From: Escherichia phage fKMPT1
DNA length: 64,000 nucleotides
Sequence record: PP620640
Direction: 5' to 3' (one strand)
In this document: one piece after another, positions 2,633-61,619 of the stretch
Layout of the letters: the number at the start of each line of letters is the position of its first letter
How positions within the stretch are numbered: position 1 is the first letter of the stretch
Position numbers and translations under genes: made by a program
The notes under the pieces: generated by a model
The model's input: only the letters and a program-made list of their open reading frames with translations
The model's database searches: none
Told to the model about the DNA's origin: nothing

Positions 2633-2992
2633 TTATGGGAACAGACACTTAATGTCATCATTTTTGAAAACGAAGCTTGTGTAATTGTGACCATCAACAT
2701 CCAGCCAAACAGCCTGAACATCTACACCATCAAGATTGTGGTAAATCTCTTTGATGAAGTGGTCTTTTACAATCTGGCTACTAGTTGTTTCCAGCTTAAT
2801 GTTTGAGATTGCTGAACCTACAGCCATATAACCCATGACACGTTTCTTCTCAGTATGCTTAATCTTACCATCTTTATAAGCCATAATGAGATTGGAAAGA
2901 ATCTTCACACCATAATACTTTTCAAGGTGAGTAGGTACACCATAAAAGCCTAATGCGAAGTTTTCAGAGTGGATAATGTTTTCACGTTTCAT
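2633..2992 (-). CDS. hypothetical protein
   Basis: 119-aa ORF. Confidence 0.5.
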   Translation of the reverse strand: MKRENIIHSENFALGFYGVPTHLEKYYGVKILSNLIMAYKDGKIKHTEKKRVMGYMAVGSAISNIKLETTSSQIVKDHFIKEIYHNLDGVDVQAVWLDVDGHNYTSFVFKNDDIKCLFP

Positions 2993-2993
2993 A

Positions 2994-3323
2994 TTAATCT
3001 GCCAGCCTTAAATTAAAATTAACACCAAATTTTTCGCATACTTCCAACATATACTCAAGCGAGACATTACCAGTGAGGTGGATTATGTTGGATACGCGAG
3101 CCTGAGAGATACCACAAATTTTAGCAACTTGCTCTTGAGAAAGACCTCTGGATTTAATCTCTCTCTTAAAACGATGTGCAACGAAGTCTCTCATTTCGTC
3201 TACATCCATTGGACAAATATAACTCTCCATTTCAGCCTCTCTGTCAACCTCCCAATCATCTTGTGGAGCATAAGGGTCAAAAGTCTCATTCATCTTTCTT
3301 CTTCCGTTTGCGTGAAGTGTCAA
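2994..3323 (-). CDS. helix-turn-helix (XRE-like) DNA-binding protein
   Basis: SQEQVAKICGISQARVSNI HTH-like segment. Confidence 0.55.
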   Translation of the reverse strand: MTLHANGRRKMNETFDPYAPQDDWEVDREAEMESYICPMDVDEMRDFVAHRFKREIKSRGLSQEQVAKICGISQARVSNIIHLTGNVSLEYMLEVCEKFGVNFNLRLAD

Positions 3324-3498
3324 TCAATGAATCTATGTTTGTAGCCCTAACCTTTTCACGTTCATCGTTAAGATAATCATCAAGAGCCTTTTCAATCTGT
3401 GAATCATCTTGACAGATAACTGTAAAGACTGTAAAGCCGTCTGTATCGTCAATTATCTTACCATAACCGCTTCTGGGGTGTAACTTTTTAAGAGCCAT
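3286..3498 (-). CDS. hypothetical protein
   Basis: 70-aa ORF with basic C-terminus; overlaps neighbour by 38 nt. Confidence 0.35.
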   Translation of the reverse strand: MALKKLHPRSGYGKIIDDTDGFTVFTVICQDDSQIEKALDDYLNDEREKVRATNIDSLIDTSRKRKKKDE

Positions 3499-3499
3499 A

Positions 3500-3883
3500 T
3501 CAAATACCTGTGCAGCTTCTGTTTTCTAAGAAATACTCAACACCATACATAGCTTTTTGCATCAAATCTTCTTTAAACTGGATGCGATGGTTGAGCATAG
3601 CCTGTACATCAATATCATCATGGTGCTTTTCTTTAATATTTGCAGATTGCAGGAAATACTCTCCAAGAACACGATACTGGTAGTCAGTTACCTTATCAGT
3701 CATCTCTGTCAAAGACTCTTCAGAGATTGGTTTAAGTAGCTCACCTTTAGATAGCGCAACACCTTTTACAATCTGGCAAGTGTCTTCTGGAACACCTGAT
3801 AAGTCCACATTTGGAAGTTCTGTTGCATTGACTGGTAAATTCATTGCCATAACCATTGCAGCAGCTAATAAAATCTTTTTCAT
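3500..3883 (-). CDS. secreted/periplasmic small protein
   Basis: N-terminal signal peptide MKKILLAAAMVMAMNLPVNA. Confidence 0.55.
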   Translation of the reverse strand: MKKILLAAAMVMAMNLPVNATELPNVDLSGVPEDTCQIVKGVALSKGELLKPISEESLTEMTDKVTDYQYRVLGEYFLQSANIKEKHHDDIDVQAMLNHRIQFKEDLMQKAMYGVEYFLENRSCTGI

Positions 3884-4468
3884 AATGACCTCAAAGTTAT
3901 ATTAAATTTTGTATTACATTGAGTATAAAAATAAGCTATAACACCTGACTTGTCAACAGATTTTATAGCTTATTTGGCAGATTTTTTATAAGGCTACTGC
4001 CATCCTTCCATACCACACCAAACCACACCTTACCTCACACCACCACACCCAACCGAGCCTGACCTTATTAAAAGACCCTCTTAAAGACCTTTTAAAAAGG
4101 TAAGTCTCATTTTAATGTAGTTGAGACTAACTACCCATACTTTACCGGACCTTACTGGACCATACCTAACACCACCGAACCAAACCATACACCACCGAAC
4201 CGTACCATACCAGACATCACTTAAAAACCCTCTTAGAAAGACTCTTAAGTGATGCTGGTGAGTACCCGTTGGTTTATGCTGCTCAGTATACTCACCAAAT
4301 TTTCTATGTCAACAACTTTTATAAAAAAGTTCTGATAGCTATATGCGTCACGAAACAAAAGATTGTAAACAAGACACCCATTGCAAAAGATGTGTCCAAA
4401 AGCTTACTTGCAACGTATGACAATACAAAGACAACCAGTATAAACAAAATGACTGTACTGAACATAGT

Positions 4469-5569
4469 TTACTCATAATCCCTAATAACTAGCCCAACAG
4501 GAAACTGTAAAGACCCCTTACGAGTCATCTTCTGGAACTGAACCGTTAAAGGTTTCCCGATAAACTCTTCAGGATGCTCAGCAAGATACTGTTTCTTCTC
4601 ATGAGTAGTCTTCCATGAGACATCTACAAAGACGTTAGGAAGCGTCTCTACAACGAACTTGCCATGACCACGTTTATCGGTCTTTACACCAGTTACTTTA
4701 AACTCTTCAGTGTGCATCTTCTTGTGCTTAATCAAGAAGTATGAACGGTGACAACACTCATAGAAGGAGTCTTCAGAAATTGAACGGTACATTGCACCTT
4801 CAAACTTAGCTTCAACCCACTTATCATGGGCTTCATCAAACTCTTCCCAAGAGTTAACACGACGAGATTTAACAGGGACAACTTTACAGCCATCTCTAAA
4901 GTCATTCAATGGTGAAGTCTCAATAATATCTCTACGCTCAGGCCACGTCTTAGTACTGTCACAGATATCATACCAGTAGAACTGGAGTAGATGTCGGTCT
5001 GGATTGTCAGCATTCTTAATCATAGACACAATGTCTTCTAAGTCCCAACCATGAGCATAAATCTCGCCATCAAAGTCTTTAACTTGCGGATGTAATTTAA
5101 GCAACAAAAGTAAATCTGGGATTAGTTCTGCTGGAACGTTGTAAACAGTATTCTCACGAGAATAAGCCGTGAAGCTAACTGAATCAGCATCTCTTGAAAT
5201 TCTACAACGAACACCATCAAGTTTTGGTTGAGCATCAGCAGGGAATATCAAATACTTTGCATGACTAACCTTTGCAGCATCATGCGCAAGCTGTACACCT
5301 ACCTTCTCAGTATTCTGTGCAGACTCTTTTGTGTAAGCATAACCTTTGCGGTCAACCTGCTTTTTATACTTAGCAGCAACTTCAAAGAGAGCTTGCTGTT
5401 CAGCGTTACGCTCATTCTTTTTACCGATGTTTTTAGGTTCTGCTGTATACTCTTCAAACATCATCTTGCCATTCTCTTTACCGTAGGTTGTAATAACTTT
5501 GTCGCCTACAGCAACACATGACCAGACGTTGAAGGAGCCATCTTTATTTTGTTTGTATAGAATTGTCAT
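4469..5569 (-). CDS. ATP-dependent DNA ligase
   Basis: 366 aa; adenylation motif I KLDGVR. Confidence 0.8.
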   Translation of the reverse strand: MTILYKQNKDGSFNVWSCVAVGDKVITTYGKENGKMMFEEYTAEPKNIGKKNERNAEQQALFEVAAKYKKQVDRKGYAYTKESAQNTEKVGVQLAHDAAKVSHAKYLIFPADAQPKLDGVRCRISRDADSVSFTAYSRENTVYNVPAELIPDLLLLLKLHPQVKDFDGEIYAHGWDLEDIVSMIKNADNPDRHLLQFYWYDICDSTKTWPERRDIIETSPLNDFRDGCKVVPVKSRRVNSWEEFDEAHDKWVEAKFEGAMYRSISEDSFYECCHRSYFLIKHKKMHTEEFKVTGVKTDKRGHGKFVVETLPNVFVDVSWKTTHEKKQYLAEHPEEFIGKPLTVQFQKMTRKGSLQFPVGLVIRDYE

Positions 5570-56769: not shown

Positions 56770-58185
56770 ATGAGCGAATTATTTAAACATGCGCACCTTC
56801 ATGCAGGTCGAACTGAAAATGGTGCTGTAAACCATACTTCATCAATGTCTGCTCTTGTAGACTTTTACAAAGCTGCTGGTTCAAGCCGTAGCAATGTAGA
56901 AATCTTACCAGACTTGTTCTACAAAGCTTTGCGTGAGGATGTTGATGTTGCAGTTCGTATTTTGCTTCACATGCGAGATGTACGAGAAGGTATGGGTGAG
57001 CGTAAAGCCTTCAGAACTGTTTTACTTCAAGCAATCGAAGATAAAGTTTTAGAGCCTACACAGGTTCTTCGTATTATGGATAAGATTGCAGAACTTGGTC
57101 GTTTTGATGACTTCAAAATCTTCGTAGGTACTCGTTTTGAGACAGATGCCTTTAAGCATTTAGAAGCAGCATTACTAGACCCTGAGACAGCAGGTTTAGC
57201 AGCTAAGTGGTTACCACGAGTAAAACCACGACACAAACAGTTTGTAAAACGTTTCTGTAAGTTTGCTAACTTGAGTGAGAGAGAGTATCGCACACTGTTA
57301 TCTGTACTGTCTGATACTGTTGAGCAAAAAATCTCTGCTAATGAGTTTGGTAAGATTGACTACAGCAAGATTCCTTCACTCGCTGCTGCACGTTACCAAA
57401 AACTCTTTAACCGTAAAGATGGTGAACGCTACAAAGCTTACATCGAGTCACTCTCAAAAGGTGAGGCTAAGATTAACGCTGGTGCTGTTTACCCATACGA
57501 TGTGATTAAGTCTATCAAGTATGGTAATGCAGATGTTGCTAATGAGCAGTGGAAAGCACTACCAAACTGGATGGCAGAAGGTGAAAACATTTTGTGTATG
57601 ACTGATGTTTCAAGCTCAATGTCTTGGGTGAATCTTGGTTCAATCACTGCTCTTGATATTGGTGTATCTCTTGCCTTGTATGTAGCAGAACGCAACACTG
57701 GTTGCTTTAAGAATGAGTTAATGGTTTACTCAACAAACCCTCACTTCATCGAACTGAGTGGTGATTTACGAAACCGTCATCGTCAGGTAATGCGTCACGT
57801 TGAATATGGTTCAACTAACTTACAAGCAGCTTTTGACCGTATTCTTGAGGTAGGTAAGAGAAACAACTTGACTCAGAAAGATATGCCAAGTAAGCTTATT
57901 ATCTTCTCTGATATGGAGTTTAATCAGGTTGACGGTGCAAATGGTCGTACAAACTTTGAAGCAATTCAGAGTAAGTACAAAAAAGCTGGATACGAAATGC
58001 CACAACTGGTATTCTGGTACTTAGCAAACCGTAATGGTACTTGCGAAGTATCTGTTAAGGATAACGGTGTAGCAATGGTATCAGGGTTCTCTCCAGCCAC
58101 TTTAAAAGCTCTGCTTGGTGGTGAGAAGTTTGACCCAATCAGCGTAATGCTCAAAGCAGTAATGATTGACCGTTACATCTGGTAA
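56770..58185 (+). CDS. vWA-domain protein with helical N-terminal domain (TROVE/Ro60-like or DUF2828-like candidate)
   Basis: 471 aa; helical N-terminus, then MIDAS-like DVSSSM and SDMEF vWA features. Confidence 0.5.
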   Translation: MSELFKHAHLHAGRTENGAVNHTSSMSALVDFYKAAGSSRSNVEILPDLFYKALREDVDVAVRILLHMRDVREGMGERKAFRTVLLQAIEDKVLEPTQVLRIMDKIAELGRFDDFKIFVGTRFETDAFKHLEAALLDPETAGLAAKWLPRVKPRHKQFVKRFCKFANLSEREYRTLLSVLSDTVEQKISANEFGKIDYSKIPSLAAARYQKLFNRKDGERYKAYIESLSKGEAKINAGAVYPYDVIKSIKYGNADVANEQWKALPNWMAEGENILCMTDVSSSMSWVNLGSITALDIGVSLALYVAERNTGCFKNELMVYSTNPHFIELSGDLRNRHRQVMRHVEYGSTNLQAAFDRILEVGKRNNLTQKDMPSKLIIFSDMEFNQVDGANGRTNFEAIQSKYKKAGYEMPQLVFWYLANRNGTCEVSVKDNGVAMVSGFSPATLKALLGGEKFDPISVMLKAVMIDRYIW

Positions 58186-59081: not shown

Positions 59082-59537
59082 AATTATAATAAGTATTTCA
59101 AAATGATGTTTTGAGAGGGCTATTTAGCCCCTCCCTTAAAGAGTTCTTACGAGTATTCTTTAAAGGAGCAGAAGACCAAATTCAGCAAGAACGTATGAAA
59201 TTTCAAGCCAATTTAATTTTGAAAATTTAAAACTTGGTCTGGCTCAACAAATTTACAGAAGACCGTTTACAGCAAAACTTAAACAATCTATTTCTCGGTA
59301 AAGAAAAGGCGAAGGTTCGATTCCTTCACTCGGCAGATGTCGAGTTGGTGTAATGGTAGCACTTAAGATGATAAACAACGGTCTGGTAATTGTCTTTGCA
59401 GTAGCTTATGTGGCTAATTATGTCGTCCCATGAGTGCCGATGAATTTCCTTAGCATGATTCTAGATTAGCTTAATAGGAAATGACTCTACAGACCCTTTA
59501 GCAAGGTCTGCGTAGGTTACTGCAAAGATAATTTAAT

Positions 59538-59771: not shown

Positions 59772-59786
59772 ATTTCAATAAAGTTG

Positions 59787-59815
59787 TTGACATTGAGATG
59801 TGACTACTTTATAGT
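59787..59815 (+). promoter_or_regulatory. sigma70-like promoter inside tRNA region
   Basis: TTGACA - 17 nt - TATAGT. Confidence 0.55.
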
Positions 59816-60109
59816 AACTGAAAATGATTCAGCATATGTATAATTCAAACACCAATACATGAGCGTTAGACGTAACACAATGTGGGGAAATTTGTTGTAC
59901 ATATTCTGAATAGTTTTCGTTGCGTAGCGTCTATTTTGCAAAGTTAAAATAAATGCAAACGACAATGTTTTTCTGGCAGTAGCTTGATAGGCTAAACACC
60001 AGTGAGGTCTTCCAACCCCTCATCAAAGAATTTGGCGTACTAGCCCACGGTATGATTAATAAGGTGGGCATCTTTAAGGGCTTTCTAAGAGAGTCTTTAA
60101 AGATAATTA

Positions 60110-60191
60110 CGGGGCGTATCTCAGCTGTCTTCTAAACAGCCGTTAACCGAGTAAGTGGAGTATGCGGGTTCGAGTCCTGCCGCCTCGACCA
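60110..60191 (+). tRNA. tRNA-like gene, non-canonical (no D-arm; anticodon-like hairpin with TCT)
   Basis: perfect acceptor and T-arm with CCA; internal hairpin gctgt-CTTCTAA-acagc; only 7 nt where D-arm should be. Confidence 0.4.
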
Positions 60192-60334
60192 ATTTAGTTA
60201 GCAGATTACTTAGACGACCTTATCGGGTCTTCCTGTAGGGAGGTGGTCTGTATCTCATGTTTTCCAGAACATGTAAATAATCTGAGAAGGGGCTTTACAG
60301 TGTTGTGAAAATACGGTAAGCTTCGAACTATAAT

Positions 60335-60417
60335 GTGGGACGATGTTAAGACTCTAAGGCATGAGCAACGGCTTCCAACACCGTTTCAAAGGGGTTCAAA
60401 TCCTCCGTCCCATGCCA
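60335..60417 (+). tRNA. tRNA-like gene, isotype undetermined (9-nt loop hairpin containing CCA/TCC)
   Basis: acceptor/T-arm/CCA canonical; internal hairpin aacgg-CTTCCAACA-ccgtt; D region irregular. Confidence 0.4.
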
Positions 60418-60430
60418 AAGTCTTATTAGG

Positions 60431-60518
60431 GGTAGGTAGCGGCTAATGGTAGCCAAACTGTCTTGAAAACAGTTGCCACTGTAGAGATACGGTGAGGGTT
60501 CGACTCCTTTACTTACCG
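60431..60518 (+). tRNA. tRNA-Ser (anticodon TGA), long variable arm; CCA not encoded
   Basis: anticodon arm actgt-CTTGAAA-acagt perfect; 20-nt variable arm. Confidence 0.65.
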
Positions 60519-60773
60519 CCTAATAAGATTTACACCGTCCATGCTCGCTCGCATTTTCGGTTTATCCCTCGTGTTGTCGTACACTTTGATAAAGCACCTA
60601 GTAGGTGTCACGGAGAAGAGATAATATCAAGCTCTCCAAAGGTTCTAGTCACCGGATTAAACAAGACTATGCAAAGACCTATTTAGGTCTTTTTAGAGGG
60701 CTTCTAAGGTTATTACAGCTTGTTGTGGAACCTTGTTGCTTAGGTTCTTAGAAGTTCTCTAAAAAGATTTAAT

Positions 60774-60851
60774 GGGAGATTGACGGTAATTGGTAAACCT
60801 ATCTCGCTTAGAACGAGATGTTTGAGGGTTCGAATCCCTTGTCTCCTACCA
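60774..60851 (+). tRNA. tRNA with Leu anticodon TAG, short variable arm
   Basis: anticodon arm tctcg-CTTAGAA-cgaga perfect; type I length; A73. Confidence 0.55.
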
Positions 60852-61543: not shown

Positions 61544-61619
61544 GCAGGATTAGTTCAAATGGATAGAGCAGCAGTCTACGAAGCTGTTAATAGGGGTTCG
61601 AATCCCTTATCCTGCGCCA
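61544..61619 (+). tRNA. tRNA-Arg (anticodon ACG)
   Basis: perfect acceptor stem; anticodon loop CTACGAA. Confidence 0.65.

What the first reader, a model, noticed from the sequence alone, without database searches (positions are those of the whole stretch)
60110..60417. Two tRNA-like genes with canonical acceptor/T-arm/CCA but aberrant D-arm region
60110-60191 has perfect acceptor and T-stems and CCA, but only 7 nt where the D-arm should be and a perfect hairpin with loop CTTCTAA (anticodon-like UCU). 60335-60417 has a 5-bp stem closing a 9-nt loop CTTCCAACA, an expanded anticodon-like loop, and no clear D-stem. They could be D-armless tRNAs, frameshift-suppressor-like tRNAs, decoys for tRNA-targeting nucleases, or pseudogenes.
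Basis: seen in the sequence. Interest (0 to 1): 0.45.

Follow-up and report, generated by a model that had tools for sequence, protein, structure and literature searches.

The report
Two hidden, rewired phage tRNA genes
Two unannotated genes in the tRNA cluster of a Felix O1-like phage look like real but oddly built tRNAs: an arginine tRNA whose D-arm pieces are joined in a different order, a design shared by many unrelated phages, and a tryptophan tRNA with extra nucleotides; together they would give the phage tRNAs for all 20 amino acids.

Summary
The window is a Felixounavirus with a 25-gene tRNA array that lacks Trp and Arg(UCU).

**Element 1 (60110-60191)** is most likely the phage's tRNA-Arg(UCU).
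- It is not D-armless. The D-stem 5' strand plus D loop (positions 10-21) sits between the variable region and the T stem.
- The D stem therefore forms by a long-range, covarying pairing around the anticodon arm.
- The same layout occurs in over 100 unrelated viral contigs, in cultured coliphages and Klebsiella phages, and in bacterial tRNA arrays.
- Where the position-20 analogue is A, the anticodons are Arg. Where it is U, they are Ile.
- A model built from non-Felix members scores element 1 at 71 bits (E 1e-17).
- In Mooglevirus a canonical tRNA-Arg(UCU) sits in exactly the same slot.

**Element 2 (60335-60417)** is most likely tRNA-Trp(CCA).
- It is conserved across Ounavirinae, with compensatory changes in all four helices.
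- It has three fixed oddities: a 9-nt anticodon loop (C31·A39), six extra nucleotides before the D stem, and an A49·C65 mismatch (or 8/4 geometry).

Neither gene is annotated with its isotype. No expression or charging data exist. Element 1 also carries G3·U70 and A73, which are alanine identity elements. I found no published description of the permuted architecture.

The parts
60110..60191 (+). Element 1: non-canonical tRNA-Arg(UCU) gene with encoded CCA (permuted D domain)
   Evidence: Class model R1 gives 71.1 bits, E 1.2e-17. Rfam tRNA gives 31.2 bits. Present in 281 phage records.
60110..60116 (+). Element 1 acceptor 5' strand CGGGGCG. It pairs with 60181-60187 (CGCCTCG). G60112·T60185 is G3·U70.
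   Evidence: Sequence. Acceptor pairs are 99% paired, and all 7 covary in the class alignment.
60117..60123 (+). U8 A9 analogues (60117-18), U22 analogue (60119), CUC as the analogue of D-stem 3' strand 23-25 (60120-22), and A26 analogue (60123)
   Evidence: T8 and A9 are invariant in the 60-sequence alignment. CUC pairs with GAG at 60149-51.
60124..60140 (+). Element 1 anticodon arm GCUGU-CUUCUAA-ACAGC; anticodon UCU at 60131-33
   Evidence: Canonical 5-bp stem and 7-nt loop with U33 and A37. There is a compensatory GCGGT/ACCGC <-> GCTGT/ACAGC change within Felixounavirus.
60141..60148 (+). Linker V' (CGUUAACC), the analogue of the variable region
   Evidence: Its length varies from 3 to 11 nt across the class.
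60149..60163 (+). Relocated D segment: GAG (analogue of 10-12, pairs with 60120-22), U13, A14 A15 G U G18 G19 A20 (A20 analogue at 60159), then G U A21-like, and U48-like at 60163
   Evidence: Long-range helix: 343 of 399 cells paired against 213±8 in shuffles, and 88% paired with double changes in all 3 pairs. The 15/48 pair covaries: A/U 121, G/C 5. GGA goes with Arg anticodons and GGU with Ile anticodons.
60164..60180 (+). Element 1 T arm GCGGG-UUCGAGU-CCUGC
   Evidence: Sequence.
60188..60191 (+). Element 1 discriminator A73 and encoded CCA
   Evidence: Sequence. CCA is encoded in 92 of 133 class members.
60335..60417 (+). Element 2: non-canonical tRNA-Trp(CCA) gene with encoded CCA
   Evidence: Conserved in 235 phage records across Ounavirinae. 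9 pairs show double changes. ARAGORN -mt calls Trp(cca).
60335..60341 (+). Element 2 acceptor 5' strand GUGGGAC. It pairs with 60407-60413 (GUCCCAU). 1-72 is G·U here and A-U in most relatives.
   Evidence: Pair 1-72: AU 6, GC 2, GU 1. Pair 2-71: UA 7, CG 2.
60342..60349 (+). Invariant 8-nt connector GAUGUUAA (a canonical tRNA has 2 nt). G60342 could pair with C60406 to give an 8/4 acceptor/T geometry.
   Evidence: Invariant in all Ounavirinae copies. The unrelated contig L134 has GAGCAUAA instead. RNAalifold predicts the 8th pair.
60350..60366 (+). Element 2 D arm: G(A)CUC (60350-54), loop UAAGGCAU (60355-62), GAGC (60363-66)
   Evidence: CUC/GAG changes to CAC/GUG in a compensatory way. Helix is 97% paired. 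The single-sequence MFE fold also forms it.
60367..60385 (+). Element 2 anticodon arm: 5-bp stem AACGG/CCGUU (60367-71 with 60381-85) closing the 9-nt loop CUUCCAACA (60372-80); anticodon CCA at 60375-77; C60372·A60380 is the C31·A39 mismatch
   Evidence: Stem variants ACGG/CCGU, UAAG/CUUA and UAGG/CCUA. The 26-44 pair covaries (AU 4, GC 3, GU 2). Position 31·39 is never paired, 0 of 9.
60390..60406 (+). Element 2 T arm: A49 (60390), GGGG (60391-94), UUCAAAU (60395-60401), CCUC (60402-05), C65 (60406); A49·C65 is never paired
   Evidence: Pair 50-64 shows G-C <-> U-A. Position 49·65 is unpaired in 9 of 9.
60414..60417 (+). Element 2 discriminator G73 and encoded CCA
   Evidence: Sequence. G73 is a bacterial Trp identity element (PMC9976931).

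Best explanation
Both elements are functional, structurally irregular elongator tRNA genes that complete the phage's own decoding set.

**Element 1 is the phage's tRNA-Arg(UCU), for AGA and perhaps AGG codons.**
- It belongs to a widespread phage class in which the D/anticodon domain is internally circularly permuted.
- After U8-A9 come the analogues of positions 22-25, then 26, the anticodon arm and a short variable-type linker. Only then come the analogues of 10-13 and the D loop (A14...G18 G19 A20...A21), followed by U48 and the T stem.
- The D stem therefore forms as a long-range 3-bp helix that encloses the anticodon arm.
- The G18 G19 elbow contacts, the U8·A14 and 15·48 tertiary pairs, and the position-20 'variable pocket' read by ArgRS can all be kept in an L shape.
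- *Shown:* the helices, their covariation, the 15/48 covariation, the link between the position-20 analogue and anticodon identity, the class-wide restriction to Arg or Ile anticodons, non-redundancy with canonical isoacceptors, and the replacement of a canonical tRNA-Arg(UCU) at the same site.
- *Inferred:* the L-shaped fold, charging by ArgRS, and use on the ribosome.

**Element 2 is the phage's tRNA-Trp(CCA).**
- It has an ordinary cloverleaf order but three fixed irregularities: 6 extra nucleotides between the acceptor and D stem; an unpaired C31·A39, so a 5-bp stem (26-44 plus 27-30/40-43) closes a 9-nt loop; and an A49·C65 mismatch (or an 8-bp acceptor with a 4-bp T stem).

**Why these shapes are kept is unknown.** My best guess is a structurally tolerated lineage design that spreads horizontally among phage tRNA arrays, possibly with the benefit of escaping host tRNA-targeting enzymes. 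That last step is speculation.
For: **Element 1 and its class**
- The long-range helix is 100%, 97% and 61% paired at its three positions, with four Watson-Crick types at the middle pair. 343 of 399 cells are paired against 213±8 in shuffles and 24-35% in slid registers.
- On an independent MAFFT alignment of 60 non-Felix members, 96.2% of cells are paired and the covariation score is 0.891 against 0.218 shuffled. All 3 long-range pairs show double changes.
- Model R1 scores element 1 at 71.1 bits, E 1.2e-17, against 32 bits or less for canonical tRNAs.
- The Levitt-type 15/48 pair covaries: A/U 121, G/C 5, exceptions 3.
- With A after GG, anticodons are UCU, ACG, UCG, CCU, CCG or GCG, with one GAU exception. 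With a non-A after GG it is always U, and anticodons are UAU 14, GAU 4, CAU 3 and UGU 1, all with A73.
- This matches the bacterial identity sets: Arg = A20, C35, U/G36, A/G/U73; Ile = U20, A73, anticodon (PMC9976931).
- Of 52 viral arrays holding a permuted Arg, only 3 also have a canonical Arg with the same anticodon, while 30 have canonical Arg with other anticodons. The window shows the same pattern: canonical Arg(ACG) at 61544 plus permuted Arg(UCU).
- Mooglevirus, Suspvirus and Pectobacterium phages carry a canonical 77-nt tRNA-Arg(UCU) at the syntenic site. The flanks are orthologous right up to the gene ends.
- AGA is 25% and AGG 10% of Arg codons in the window's ORFs. The Felix O1 genome paper found AGA over-represented and 'might have expected' a tRNA for it (PMC3185647).
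- AGA codons align with Arg in 51% of positions, against 52-64% for CGU, CGC and CGA and 38% for the 8 aligned CGG codons, and with Ala in 3%, in orthologues of a distant phage.
- Within Felixounavirus the anticodon stem shows a compensatory double change.

**Element 2**
- It is present in 235 phage records at 77-100% identity.
- 9 pairs show double changes and every helix is 97-100% paired, while 31·39 and 49·65 are unpaired in 9 of 9 sequences.
- It carries G73, A9, G3-C70, G4-C69, G5-C68 and CCA, and A1-U72 in most relatives. These are bacterial Trp identity elements.
- The 25 ARAGORN tRNAs cover 19 amino acids, all except Trp. A 2025 study of Mooglevirus Sf14 likewise lists 26 tRNAs for 19 amino acids and no Trp (PMC12482277).
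- An unrelated viral contig (L134) has a Trp-type gene with the same three oddities, and ARAGORN finds no Trp there either.
Against: - There are no expression, processing, modification or aminoacylation data for either RNA.
- The L-shaped fold of the permuted design is inferred from covariation, not modelled.
- Single-sequence folding is unremarkable (z = -0.14 and -0.82). For element 1 the MFE pairs CUC with the other GAG.
- Element 1 carries G2-C71, G3·U70, G4-C69 and A73, which is the whole acceptor-branch identity set of bacterial tRNA-Ala. AlaRS might therefore charge it.
- The scan patterns fixed the T loop and part of the D-loop motif, so class statistics are conditioned on those motifs.
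- Element 2 has mismatches of the kind expected in decaying genes. In Pectobacterium and Yersinia phages it also has a bulged U in the acceptor stem.
- A promoter-like site (10 of 12 matches) ends exactly at nucleotide 1 of element 2. Transcripts started there would lack its 5' end.
- Annotators call relatives 'tRNA-OTHER' or 'tRNA-Leu(taa)', or leave them unannotated.
Confidence: 0.7

Rival explanations
1. Element 1 is charged wholly or partly with alanine. Its acceptor stem carries the AlaRS determinants (G3·U70, G2-C71, G4-C69, A73). It would then be a dual-identity or mis-incorporating tRNA that puts Ala at AGA codons.
For: The acceptor sequence matches the bacterial Ala identity set in the acceptor branch (PMC9976931). 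G3·U70 is kept in four lineages whose pairs 1-72 and 2-71 differ: Felix, Klebsiella phage Roth39, jumbo phage 121Q and contig L030. There is precedent: green-algal mitochondrial tRNA(CCU) with G3:U70 and A73 is described as sharing Ala identity elements (review PMC7609411).
Against: AGA codons in the window's genes align with Arg (51%) and almost never with Ala (3%) in distant orthologues, so Ala insertion would be mistranslation of the phage's own proteins. The Arg determinants (A20 analogue, C35, U36, A73) are all present. G3·U70 is absent from the 60-member class alignment and from close relatives such as VivaForever. 1-72 is C-G rather than G-C, and the G20 determinant is replaced by A.
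Confidence: 0.12
2. One or both elements are non-translational tRNA mimics. Candidates include decoys or sponges for host tRNA-targeting nucleases, or partners of the Ro-like RNA-binding protein encoded just upstream of the array.
For: Phage tRNAs are proposed to counter host tRNases (PMC10264068). The ORF at 56770-58185 is labelled 'RNA-binding protein' in PHROGs and shows weak vWA similarity to a Ro60 orthologue. A conserved Y-RNA-like tRNA mimic lies nearby at about 59255-59385. The irregular shapes could hinder ribosome use.
Against: Both elements keep open acceptor ends with discriminator and CCA. They keep anticodon loops with U33 and a purine at 37, and the synthetase identity elements. 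Anticodon identity in the class tracks the position-20 analogue. Members are non-redundant with canonical isoacceptors. Element 1 replaces a canonical tRNA-Arg(UCU) exactly. A pure decoy would not need any of this. The true Y-RNA-like module in the window looks different: it has a closed acceptor hairpin and no anticodon.
Confidence: 0.1
3. Element 2 is a recoding tRNA. Its 9-nt loop or loosened anticodon stem lets CCA read UGA (opal read-through as Trp) or a quadruplet.
For: The enlarged loop is strictly conserved. tRNA-Trp(CCA) with a shortened anticodon stem reads UGA in eukaryotes and in E. coli tests (PMC13092985).
Against: In the published cases the unpaired position is the top pair, 27-43. 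Here the top is extended (the 26-44 pair covaries) and the bottom pair 31-39 is open. TGA ends 9 of the 44 ORFs of at least 150 aa in the window, and TAA dominates. I saw no sign of in-frame TGA, but did not test for it systematically. No other tRNA-Trp exists in the array to do ordinary UGG decoding.
Confidence: 0.08
4. They are decaying tRNA pseudogenes or homing-endonuclease scars with no function.
For: They are missed by ARAGORN. They contain mismatches and insertions. Homing endonuclease genes are inserted near these loci in some relatives.
Against: Compensatory substitutions occur in every helix of both elements. The same 'defects' are conserved across genera. The design of element 1 is shared by hundreds of unrelated phages. 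Identity elements are retained.
Confidence: 0.04

Closest known systems
Canonical bacterial or phage tRNA-Arg(UCU), e.g. the 77-nt gene at the same site in Mooglevirus Sf14/Sf17, Suspvirus SUSP2 and Pectobacterium phage Wc4-1
   Same: Same genomic slot with orthologous flanks. Same anticodon loop CUUCUAA. Same type of T arm, 7-bp acceptor and encoded CCA, and an A at the position-20 equivalent.
   Different: In element 1 the D-stem 5' strand and D loop lie after the anticodon arm rather than before it. The D stem is a long-range helix around the anticodon arm, and there is no separate 5-nt variable loop.
D-armless mitochondrial tRNAs (e.g. metazoan or nematode mt-tRNA-Ser(UCU/GCU)), as reviewed in PMC7609411
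   Same: Only a few nucleotides lie between the acceptor stem and the anticodon stem. The secondary structure has three arms. By coincidence, a UCU anticodon.
   Different: The mitochondrial tRNAs have lost the D stem and loop and often the canonical T loop, and rely on flexibility. The phage class keeps a covarying D-type helix, a G18 G19-containing D-loop segment, a canonical T loop, and 15/48 covariation.
Permuted tRNA genes of the red alga Cyanidioschyzon merolae (from my own knowledge; PMC3728597 was listed)
   Same: The order of tRNA segments in the DNA is circularly permuted.
   Different: There the whole gene is permuted, with the 3' half before the 5' half, and processing restores a canonical mature tRNA. 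Here only the D/anticodon domain is permuted, the ends are normal, and the mature RNA itself would have the new connectivity.
tRNAs with 8/4 or 9/3 acceptor/T-stem geometry and allo-tRNAs (Mukai et al., PMC5389517)
   Same: Irregular tRNAs found in phage tRNA clusters and missed or mis-typed by standard tools. Element 2 can be drawn with an 8-bp acceptor and a 4-bp T stem.
   Different: Those described are Ser, His, Cys or Sec-like, with long variable arms or Sec-like D arms. No Trp, Arg or Ile member and no permuted D domain is described. For element 2 the 8th pair is invariant, so the geometry is unresolved.
[quoted passage not shown]
   Same: Element 2 is a tRNA-Trp(CCA) with one canonical anticodon-stem pair unformed.
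   Different: The published class loses the top pair, 27-43. Element 2 loses the bottom pair, 31-39, and gains a covarying 26-44 pair, giving a 9-nt loop.
Phage tRNAs proposed to evade host anticodon nucleases through anticodon-loop changes (PMC10264068)
   Same: Phage-encoded tRNAs in large arrays that deviate from host tRNAs. This offers a possible selective reason for odd shapes.
   Different: That proposal concerns point changes in the anticodon loop. Element 1 has a host-like anticodon loop and a rewired core. No nuclease is known that would discriminate it.
Bacterial Y RNA YrlA, a tRNA mimic that works with Ro60/Rsr (from my own knowledge)
   Same: A tRNA-like RNA encoded next to a Ro-type protein gene. 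A neighbouring element in this window (about 59255-59385) has that layout.
   Different: Elements 1 and 2 have open acceptor ends with CCA, anticodon arms and synthetase identity elements. YrlA-type modules have a closed acceptor hairpin and no anticodon.

Membership tests
Canonical tRNA (cloverleaf; Rfam RF00005) | 7-bp acceptor stem, discriminator and 3' CCA (encoded or added) | tested here: met
   Both elements meet this. Acceptor pairs covary.
Canonical tRNA (cloverleaf; Rfam RF00005) | D stem-loop located between position 9 and position 26 | tested here: not met
   Element 1 has only 7 nt there, and the Rfam alignment deletes the D arm. Element 2 has the D arm, but 6 nt further from the acceptor stem.
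Canonical tRNA (cloverleaf; Rfam RF00005) | 5-bp anticodon stem closing a 7-nt loop with U33 and a purine at 37 | tested here: inconclusive
   Element 1 meets it (GCUGU-CUUCUAA-ACAGC). Element 2 does not: 31·39 is unpaired in 9 of 9 relatives, giving a 9-nt loop.
Canonical tRNA (cloverleaf; Rfam RF00005) | Score at or above the Rfam gathering threshold (29 bits) | tested here: inconclusive
   Element 1 scores 31.2 bits in a 341-nt search. In the 6-kb search it is listed only as a weak tRNA-Sec match at 23.3 bits. Element 2's best score is 21.8 bits, to tRNA-Sec.
Permuted-D-domain phage tRNA class (defined here; model R1) | A long-range 3-bp helix between the nucleotides after U8-A9-N and the nucleotides just before the UAA-N-UGG motif, enclosing the anticodon arm | tested here: met
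   60120-22 (CUC) pairs with 60149-51 (GAG). Class covariation is shown.
Permuted-D-domain phage tRNA class (defined here; model R1) | A D-loop-like segment U-A-A-N-U-G-G-(A/U) followed by ...A-U immediately before the T stem, with 15/48 covariation | tested here: met
   60152-63 reads UAAGUGGAGUAU. Class counts: A15/U48 121, G15/C48 5.
Permuted-D-domain phage tRNA class (defined here; model R1) | A significant score against a covariance model built without Felix-type sequences | tested here: met
   71.1 bits, E 1.2e-17, full-length match to model positions 1-76.
Bacterial tRNA-Arg identity (A20, C35, U/G36, A/G/U73; PMC9976931) | Presence of the determinants | tested here: met
   C35 and U36 at 60132-33, A73 at 60188, and an A directly after G18 G19 at 60159. 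Equating that A with A20 is an inference, supported by the GGA/Arg versus GGU/Ile split.
Bacterial tRNA-Arg identity (A20, C35, U/G36, A/G/U73; PMC9976931) | Aminoacylation by ArgRS | not testable with these tools
   This needs a charging assay.
Bacterial tRNA-Ala identity (G3·U70, G2-C71, G4-C69, A73, G20) | Acceptor-branch determinants | tested here: met
   G60111-C60186, G60112·U60185, G60113-C60184 and A60188. The G20 determinant is not met, because the analogue is A. AGA codons still mean Arg.
D-armless (mitochondrial-type) tRNA | Absence of the D stem and of the D-loop elements that contact the T loop | tested here: not met
   A covarying D-type helix and a conserved GG-containing segment are present.
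Bacterial tRNA-Trp identity (G73, A1-U72, G2-C71, G3-C70, G4-C69, G5-C68, A9, C34 C35 A36) | Presence of the determinants in element 2 | tested here: inconclusive
   Met: G73, CCA, A9 (60343), G3-C70, G4-C69, G5-C68. 1-72 is G·U in the window and A-U in 6 of 9 relatives. 2-71 is U-A, not G-C. Charging cannot be tested here.
(8/4) tRNAs (Mukai et al. 2017) | An 8-bp acceptor stem with a 4-bp T stem | tested here: inconclusive
   G60342-C60406 can pair and RNAalifold predicts it, but both bases are invariant. The alternative, 7/5 with an A49·C65 mismatch, cannot be excluded.
4-bp anticodon-stem tRNA-Trp(CCA) that decodes UGA | The top anticodon-stem pair (27-43) is unpaired | tested here: not met
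   27-43 is paired, and 26-44 is also paired and covaries. The open pair is 31-39.
Y RNA / YrlA-type tRNA mimic | A closed acceptor-like hairpin, no anticodon arm, and RNA ends in a separate stem | tested here: not met
   Both elements have open acceptor ends with CCA and anticodon arms. Rfam reported only tRNA-clan and weak permuted-tmRNA matches for 60090-60430, with no match to any Y RNA family.
tRNA pseudogene | Relaxed constraint: uncompensated changes in the stems and loss of identity elements | tested here: not met
   Compensatory changes occur in all helices and the same irregularities are conserved.

The most novel reading that the evidence does not exclude
Phages widely use a tRNA architecture that I could not find described: an internal circular permutation of the D/anticodon domain. 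The relocated D loop would still work as the synthetase 'variable pocket', with A20 for ArgRS and U20 for IleRS. Element 1 is the Felix O1-group example and is the long-missing AGA tRNA of these phages. The rewired core may make these tRNAs invisible to host enzymes or defence nucleases that read the canonical D arm or elbow. In the Felix/Roth39/121Q lineage, the added G3·U70 and A73 may give a dual Arg/Ala identity.
Probability: 0.5. Interest if true: 0.85.

Novelty: new variant of a known kind. Interest (0 to 1): 0.72.

Why it matters
- **tRNA structure.** If the permuted design is a working tRNA, the L-shaped adaptor can be built with a different strand connectivity and still be recognised by RNase P, class Ia synthetases, EF-Tu and the ribosome. 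That bears directly on tRNA structure, evolution and engineering, for example compact or orthogonal scaffolds.
- **Annotation.** Standard annotation systematically misses or mis-types a whole set of phage tRNAs. Relatives are left unannotated, or labelled 'tRNA-OTHER', or 'tRNA-Leu(taa)' in phage 121Q. Published counts are therefore incomplete, including 22 tRNAs with no AGA reader for Felix O1, and 19 amino acids for Sf14. Codon-usage and tRNA analyses of therapeutic Felix O1-like phages need correcting.
- **A testable question.** Do phage tRNAs with altered cores escape tRNA-targeting immunity? The G3·U70 feature offers a natural experiment on competition between ArgRS and AlaRS.

Tried and rejected
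- **ARAGORN on 59772-60780** with lowered thresholds (-ps, -ps80, -ps70), intron mode and the mitochondrial modes. It never finds element 1. Its 'tRNA-Pyl(cta)' call at 60322-60417 was rejected because the supposed CUA loop is not conserved: it reads CACUAAG in Mooglevirus.
- **Reading element 2's loop as CUUCCAA (anticodon UCC, Gly).** Rejected because relatives have CCUCCAAAA with CCA centred, and G73 with A1-U72 fits Trp.
- **An alternative D stem ATG/CAT in element 2.** Rejected because it is not conserved in Yersinia phage P778 and sits at a different position in Wc4-1.
- **A local hairpin inside element 1's 23-nt region, and the MFE pairing of CUC with the second GAG.** Rejected because only the first site covaries across the class.
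- **Weak Rfam hits to permuted tmRNA, tmRNA and tRNA-Sec**. Treated as chance or partial matches to T arms.
- **AGA reassigned to Ala.** Tested against orthologues and rejected.
- **Other isotypes with the permuted layout.** A motif-free descriptor search of 2.9 Mb of viral loci gave only Arg and Ile, plus mis-parsed canonical tRNAs.
- **The upstream ORF.** Searches against PDB sequences and NCBIfam found nothing.
- **Literature.** Eight full-text searches for a description of the permuted architecture found none, and two further searches covered Felix O1 tRNAs and phage tRNA defence evasion. Reading reviews and papers on irregular tRNAs (PMC7609411, PMC5389517, PMC13092985) also found none. 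Subscription-only papers were not searchable.
Full report
**Context.** The window matches Felixounavirus genomes; the best hit is Salmonella phage fBSPA4 at 99.9%. ARAGORN finds 25 tRNA genes between 58351 and 63556. They cover 19 amino acids, with no Trp and no Arg(UCU). The two elements lie in gaps of this array. In 260 related phage records the region is unannotated or carries only small hypothetical ORFs.

**Observation.**
- Element 1 (60110-60191): a 7-bp acceptor stem including G3·U70, 7 nt, a perfect 5-bp hairpin with loop CUUCUAA, 23 nt, a canonical T arm, A73 and CCA.
- Element 2 (60335-60417): a 7-bp acceptor, G73, CCA, and a 5-bp stem closing the 9-nt loop CUUCCAACA.
- ARAGORN never recovers element 1, even at 70% threshold or in mitochondrial mode. 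It calls element 2 Trp(cca) only in mitochondrial mode.
- In a focused search Rfam's tRNA model gives element 1 31.2 bits (gathering score 29), aligning it with the D arm deleted and a 20-nt insertion in the variable region. Element 2 reaches only 21.8 bits, against tRNA-Sec.

**Element 1 belongs to a large class.**
- A scan of viral contigs for CTTCTAA, a long spacer and a T loop returned many unrelated contigs with the same layout. That layout is: acceptor, GUA(U), 3 nt X, 1 nt, anticodon arm, a short linker, X' complementary to X, UAA-N-UGGA, a few nt ending in AU, T arm.
- An anticodon-independent scan (GTAANTGGA, spacer, T loop) again hit the 120-locus limit. It gave over 100 distinct sequences whose anticodons were UCU, ACG, UCG, CCU, CCG or GCG, all Arg, with one GAU exception.
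- Across 133 parsed members the X/X' helix is 100%, 97% and 61% paired at its three positions. The middle pair occurs as G-C 61, C-G 38, U-A 21 and A-U 9.
- 343 of 399 cells are paired, against 213±8 when partners are shuffled and 24-35% in shifted registers.
- On a MAFFT alignment of 60 non-Felix members, 96.2% of all cells are paired (62% shuffled). The covariation score is 0.891, against 0.218 shuffled and at most 0.19 slid. All three long-range pairs show changes on both sides.
- A covariance model from that alignment finds element 1 at 71.1 bits, E 1.2e-17. The window's canonical tRNAs reach 32 bits at most.

**Interpretation of the layout.**
- The segment after X' (U-A-A-N-U-G-G-A) reads like positions 13-20 of a bacterial tRNA-Arg D arm. 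The nucleotides after the acceptor are invariant U-A, like U8-A9. X is followed by one nucleotide and then the anticodon stem, as 22-25 is followed by 26.
- The order is therefore 1-9, 22-26, 27-43, linker, 10-21, 48, 49-76. This is an internal circular permutation of the D/anticodon domain. The secondary structure is shown by covariation; the L-shaped tertiary fold is inferred.
- Two further observations support the inference. First, the nucleotide equivalent to 15 and the nucleotide just before the T stem covary like the Levitt pair: A/U 121, G/C 5, exceptions 3. The preceding base is A in 127 of 129.
- Second, a third scan requiring a non-A after GG found the same architecture with U at that position. 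Its anticodons were UAU 14, GAU 4, CAU 3 and UGU 1, and all had discriminator A.
- Bacterial Arg identity is A20, C35, U/G36 and A/G/U73. Ile identity includes U20, A73 and the anticodon (PMC9976931). So the position-20 analogue tracks the anticodon's amino acid, as expected if the relocated loop is still read by class Ia synthetases.
- A motif-free descriptor search of 2.9 Mb of viral loci found no other isotype with this layout. Those loci had been selected by motif.

**Evidence that element 1 is used as the AGA tRNA.**
- In 52 viral arrays with at least 8 ARAGORN tRNAs and a permuted Arg, only 3 also have a canonical tRNA-Arg with the same anticodon, while 30 have canonical Arg genes with other anticodons. 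The window shows the same pattern: canonical Arg(ACG) at 61544 and permuted Arg(UCU).
- Sister genera carry a canonical 77-nt tRNA-Arg(UCU) between tRNA-Ile and the element-2 homologue. These are Mooglevirus Sf14, Sf17, Mijalis, ESh19 and Mordin; Suspvirus SUSP2; and Pectobacterium phages Wc4-1 and Arno162.
- The flanks in the window and in Sf14 align right up to both ends of the gene, so this is a precise cassette replacement.
- AGA and AGG make up 25% and 10% of Arg codons in the window's 44 ORFs of at least 150 aa. The Felix O1 genome paper noted AGA as over-represented and said a tRNA for it might have been expected (PMC3185647).
- Within Felixounavirus the anticodon stem shows a compensatory GCGGU/ACCGC to GCUGU/ACAGC change.
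- Sequences 85-88% identical to element 1 occur in unrelated cultured phages: the jumbo phages 121Q, SP27 and SE_PL; Klebsiella phages Roth39, Spivey, KPP-1 and BIS47; and phages of about 146-149 kb such as W22, PHB05 and VivaForever. There they are unannotated, 'tRNA-OTHER', or 'tRNA-Leu(taa)'.
- Members also occur in bacterial assemblies, for example inside an 18-tRNA array in Bradyrhizobium sp. C9.

**An unresolved point for element 1.**
- Its acceptor stem has G2-C71, G3·U70, G4-C69 and A73. That is the full acceptor-branch identity set of bacterial tRNA-Ala.
- G3·U70 is shared with Roth39, 121Q and contig L030, although pairs 1-72 and 2-71 differ among them. It is absent from VivaForever and from the 60-member alignment.
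- I tested whether AGA has changed meaning. In 29 orthologue pairs with Pectobacterium phage Wc4-1 (mean identity 44.5%), AGA aligns with Arg in 51% of positions and with Ala in 3%. CGU, CGC and CGA align with Arg in 52-64%; the 8 aligned CGG codons do so in 38%.
- AGA therefore still means Arg. Whether AlaRS mischarges this tRNA cannot be decided here.

**Element 2.**
- It is conserved in 235 phage records: Felixounavirus 92-100%, Mooglevirus 82-89%, Suspvirus, and Pectobacterium and Yersinia phages about 77%. It is never annotated as a tRNA.
- In a 9-sequence alignment, all four helices are 97-100% paired and nine pairs change on both sides. None do so in slid registers.
- The changes are: acceptor 1-72 (A-U, G-C, G·U) and 2-71 (U-A, C-G); D stem CUC/GAG to CAC/GUG; anticodon stem ACGG/CCGU, UAAG/CUUA and UAGG/CCUA; T stem 50-64 G-C to U-A.
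- Three irregularities are fixed. 31·39 is never paired (C·A, C·C or A·C), while 26-44 covaries (A-U, G-C, G·U), so a 5-bp stem closes a 9-nt loop with CCA centred. 49·65 is always A·C, or G8-C65 makes an 8/4 geometry. The connector between acceptor and D stem is 8 nt (GAUGUUAA) instead of 2.
- Most relatives have the loop core CUCCAAA, as I recall for E. coli tRNA-Trp. G73, A9, G3-C70 to G5-C68 and CCA, plus A1-U72 in most relatives, match bacterial Trp identity.
- With element 2 the array covers all 20 amino acids. A 2025 study of Sf14's tRNAs lists 19 amino acids and no Trp (PMC12482277).
- An unrelated viral contig (L134) has a Trp-type gene with the same three oddities and no other Trp gene.
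- The published UGA-reading tRNA-Trp variants lose the top stem pair, not the bottom one (PMC13092985). Element 2 is therefore not a member of that class.
- One caveat: a promoter-like site (10 of 12 matches) ends at the base before element 2. The tRNA would have to be processed from a longer transcript, for example from the near-consensus promoter at 59787-59815.

**Novelty.** Eight full-text searches aimed at the permuted architecture, out of ten in all, plus three papers on irregular tRNAs, gave no description of it or of these two genes. Subscription-only literature was not covered. Annotation pipelines sometimes flag relatives as tRNAs of undetermined type, so the loci are not invisible, but I found no description of their isotype or structure. 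I rate this a new variant of a known kind, tRNA.

**Limits.**
- There are no expression, charging or structural data.
- Class statistics are conditioned on the scan motifs (T loop GGTTCGANTCC; GTAANTGG).
- The reason for the permuted design is unknown. Evasion of tRNA-targeting defences (PMC10264068) is a hypothesis without evidence here.

Noticed in passing
window 59255-59385 (outer stem 59260-67 with 59377-84; T arm 59311-27; closed acceptor-like hairpin 59328-45; D arm 59348-62): A conserved permuted tRNA-like module lies in the gap between tRNA-Asp and tRNA-Lys. It runs T arm, then an acceptor-type stem closed by a 4-nt loop, then a D arm, all inside a long-range stem. The MFE fold gives this layout. 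The closed hairpin covaries in relatives (ACTCGGC/GTCGAGT, ACACG/CGTGT, ACCCTTC/GAAGGGT). It resembles the bacterial Y RNA YrlA as I remember it. No Rfam match.
   Followed up: partly
window 56770-58185 (+): The ORF just upstream of the tRNA array is DUF2828 + DUF7788, PHROG 850 'RNA-binding protein'. It aligns weakly (BLASTP E 2e-4) with the vWA/MIDAS start (DVSxSM) of a true Ro60 orthologue. It may be a Ro-like partner of the Y-RNA-like element. No match to PDB sequences or NCBIfam.
   Followed up: partly
window 60112 and 60185, with 60188: Element 1 has G3·U70, G2-C71, G4-C69 and A73, the alanine identity set of the acceptor branch. G3·U70 is also present in Klebsiella phage Roth39, jumbo phage 121Q and contig L030. 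AGA codons still align with Arg.
   Followed up: partly
viral loci L103, L367, L381, L389, L394, L403, L407, L415, L417, L423, L434, L444, L450, L452, L461 and others: An Ile branch of the permuted architecture: the same layout with UGGU (U at the position-20 analogue), discriminator A, and anticodons UAU, GAU or CAU.
   Followed up: partly
viral loci L011, L039, L046, L052, L061, L075, L088, L090, L035, L041, L044: A second irregular tRNA-Arg(UCU) family. It has an apparent 8-bp acceptor and 4-bp T stem, a 5-bp long-range helix (e.g. CCCGA/UCGGG) around the anticodon arm, and the motif GGGAAGGA. This is the same topological idea with different details.
   Followed up: no
L268 (Bradyrhizobium sp. 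C9 scaffold), about 5171-5250 (-) and 2879-4501 (-): A bacterial 18-tRNA array in 8 kb holds a permuted tRNA-Arg(ACG) that ARAGORN misses, a Ro60 orthologue (TROVE + vWA_Ro60) and an HNH endonuclease. This is a second co-occurrence of a Ro-type protein with a tRNA array.
   Followed up: partly
L357 299-380 (Escherichia phage 121Q), L358 308-389 (Klebsiella phage Roth39), L359 302-380 (phage VivaForever): Relatives of element 1 in cultured phages are annotated 'tRNA-Leu(taa)' or 'tRNA-OTHER'. By the evidence here they are mis-typed permuted tRNA-Arg(UCU) genes.
   Followed up: yes
L353 about 431-575 (Escherichia phage SUSP2); also after tRNA-Arg in Citrobacter phage Mijalis (L231): An extra element of about 140 nt with acceptor-like ends (GGTCAAG ... 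CTTGACT-G-CCA) and a T arm (GTAGG-TTCGACT-CCTAC) follows the canonical tRNA-Arg. It has no Rfam match and is absent from the window.
   Followed up: no
window 59787-59815 and 60305-60334; 59398-59417 and 59976-59995: There is a near-consensus sigma-70-type promoter (TTGACA-17-TATAGT) right after tRNA-Ile. A second promoter-like site has its TATAAT abutting nucleotide 1 of element 2. A 20-nt direct repeat, GCAGTAGCTTnnnnGGCTAA, occurs in the leaders before tRNA-Lys and element 1.
   Followed up: no
L138, - strand (the parsed gene starts at position 1532 of the reverse-complemented locus): This is the single permuted-class member with A at the position-20 analogue but a GAU (Ile) anticodon, A73 and no encoded CCA. 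It may be an identity switch in progress or a defective copy.
   Followed up: no
window 59772-60780, compared with phages SP22, mio and bumzen: In some Felix-like phages an HNH homing endonuclease gene is inserted in this intergenic region, next to element 1. Roth39 also has an HNH gene directly downstream of its copy. This suggests homing endonucleases help move these tRNA cassettes.
   Followed up: no
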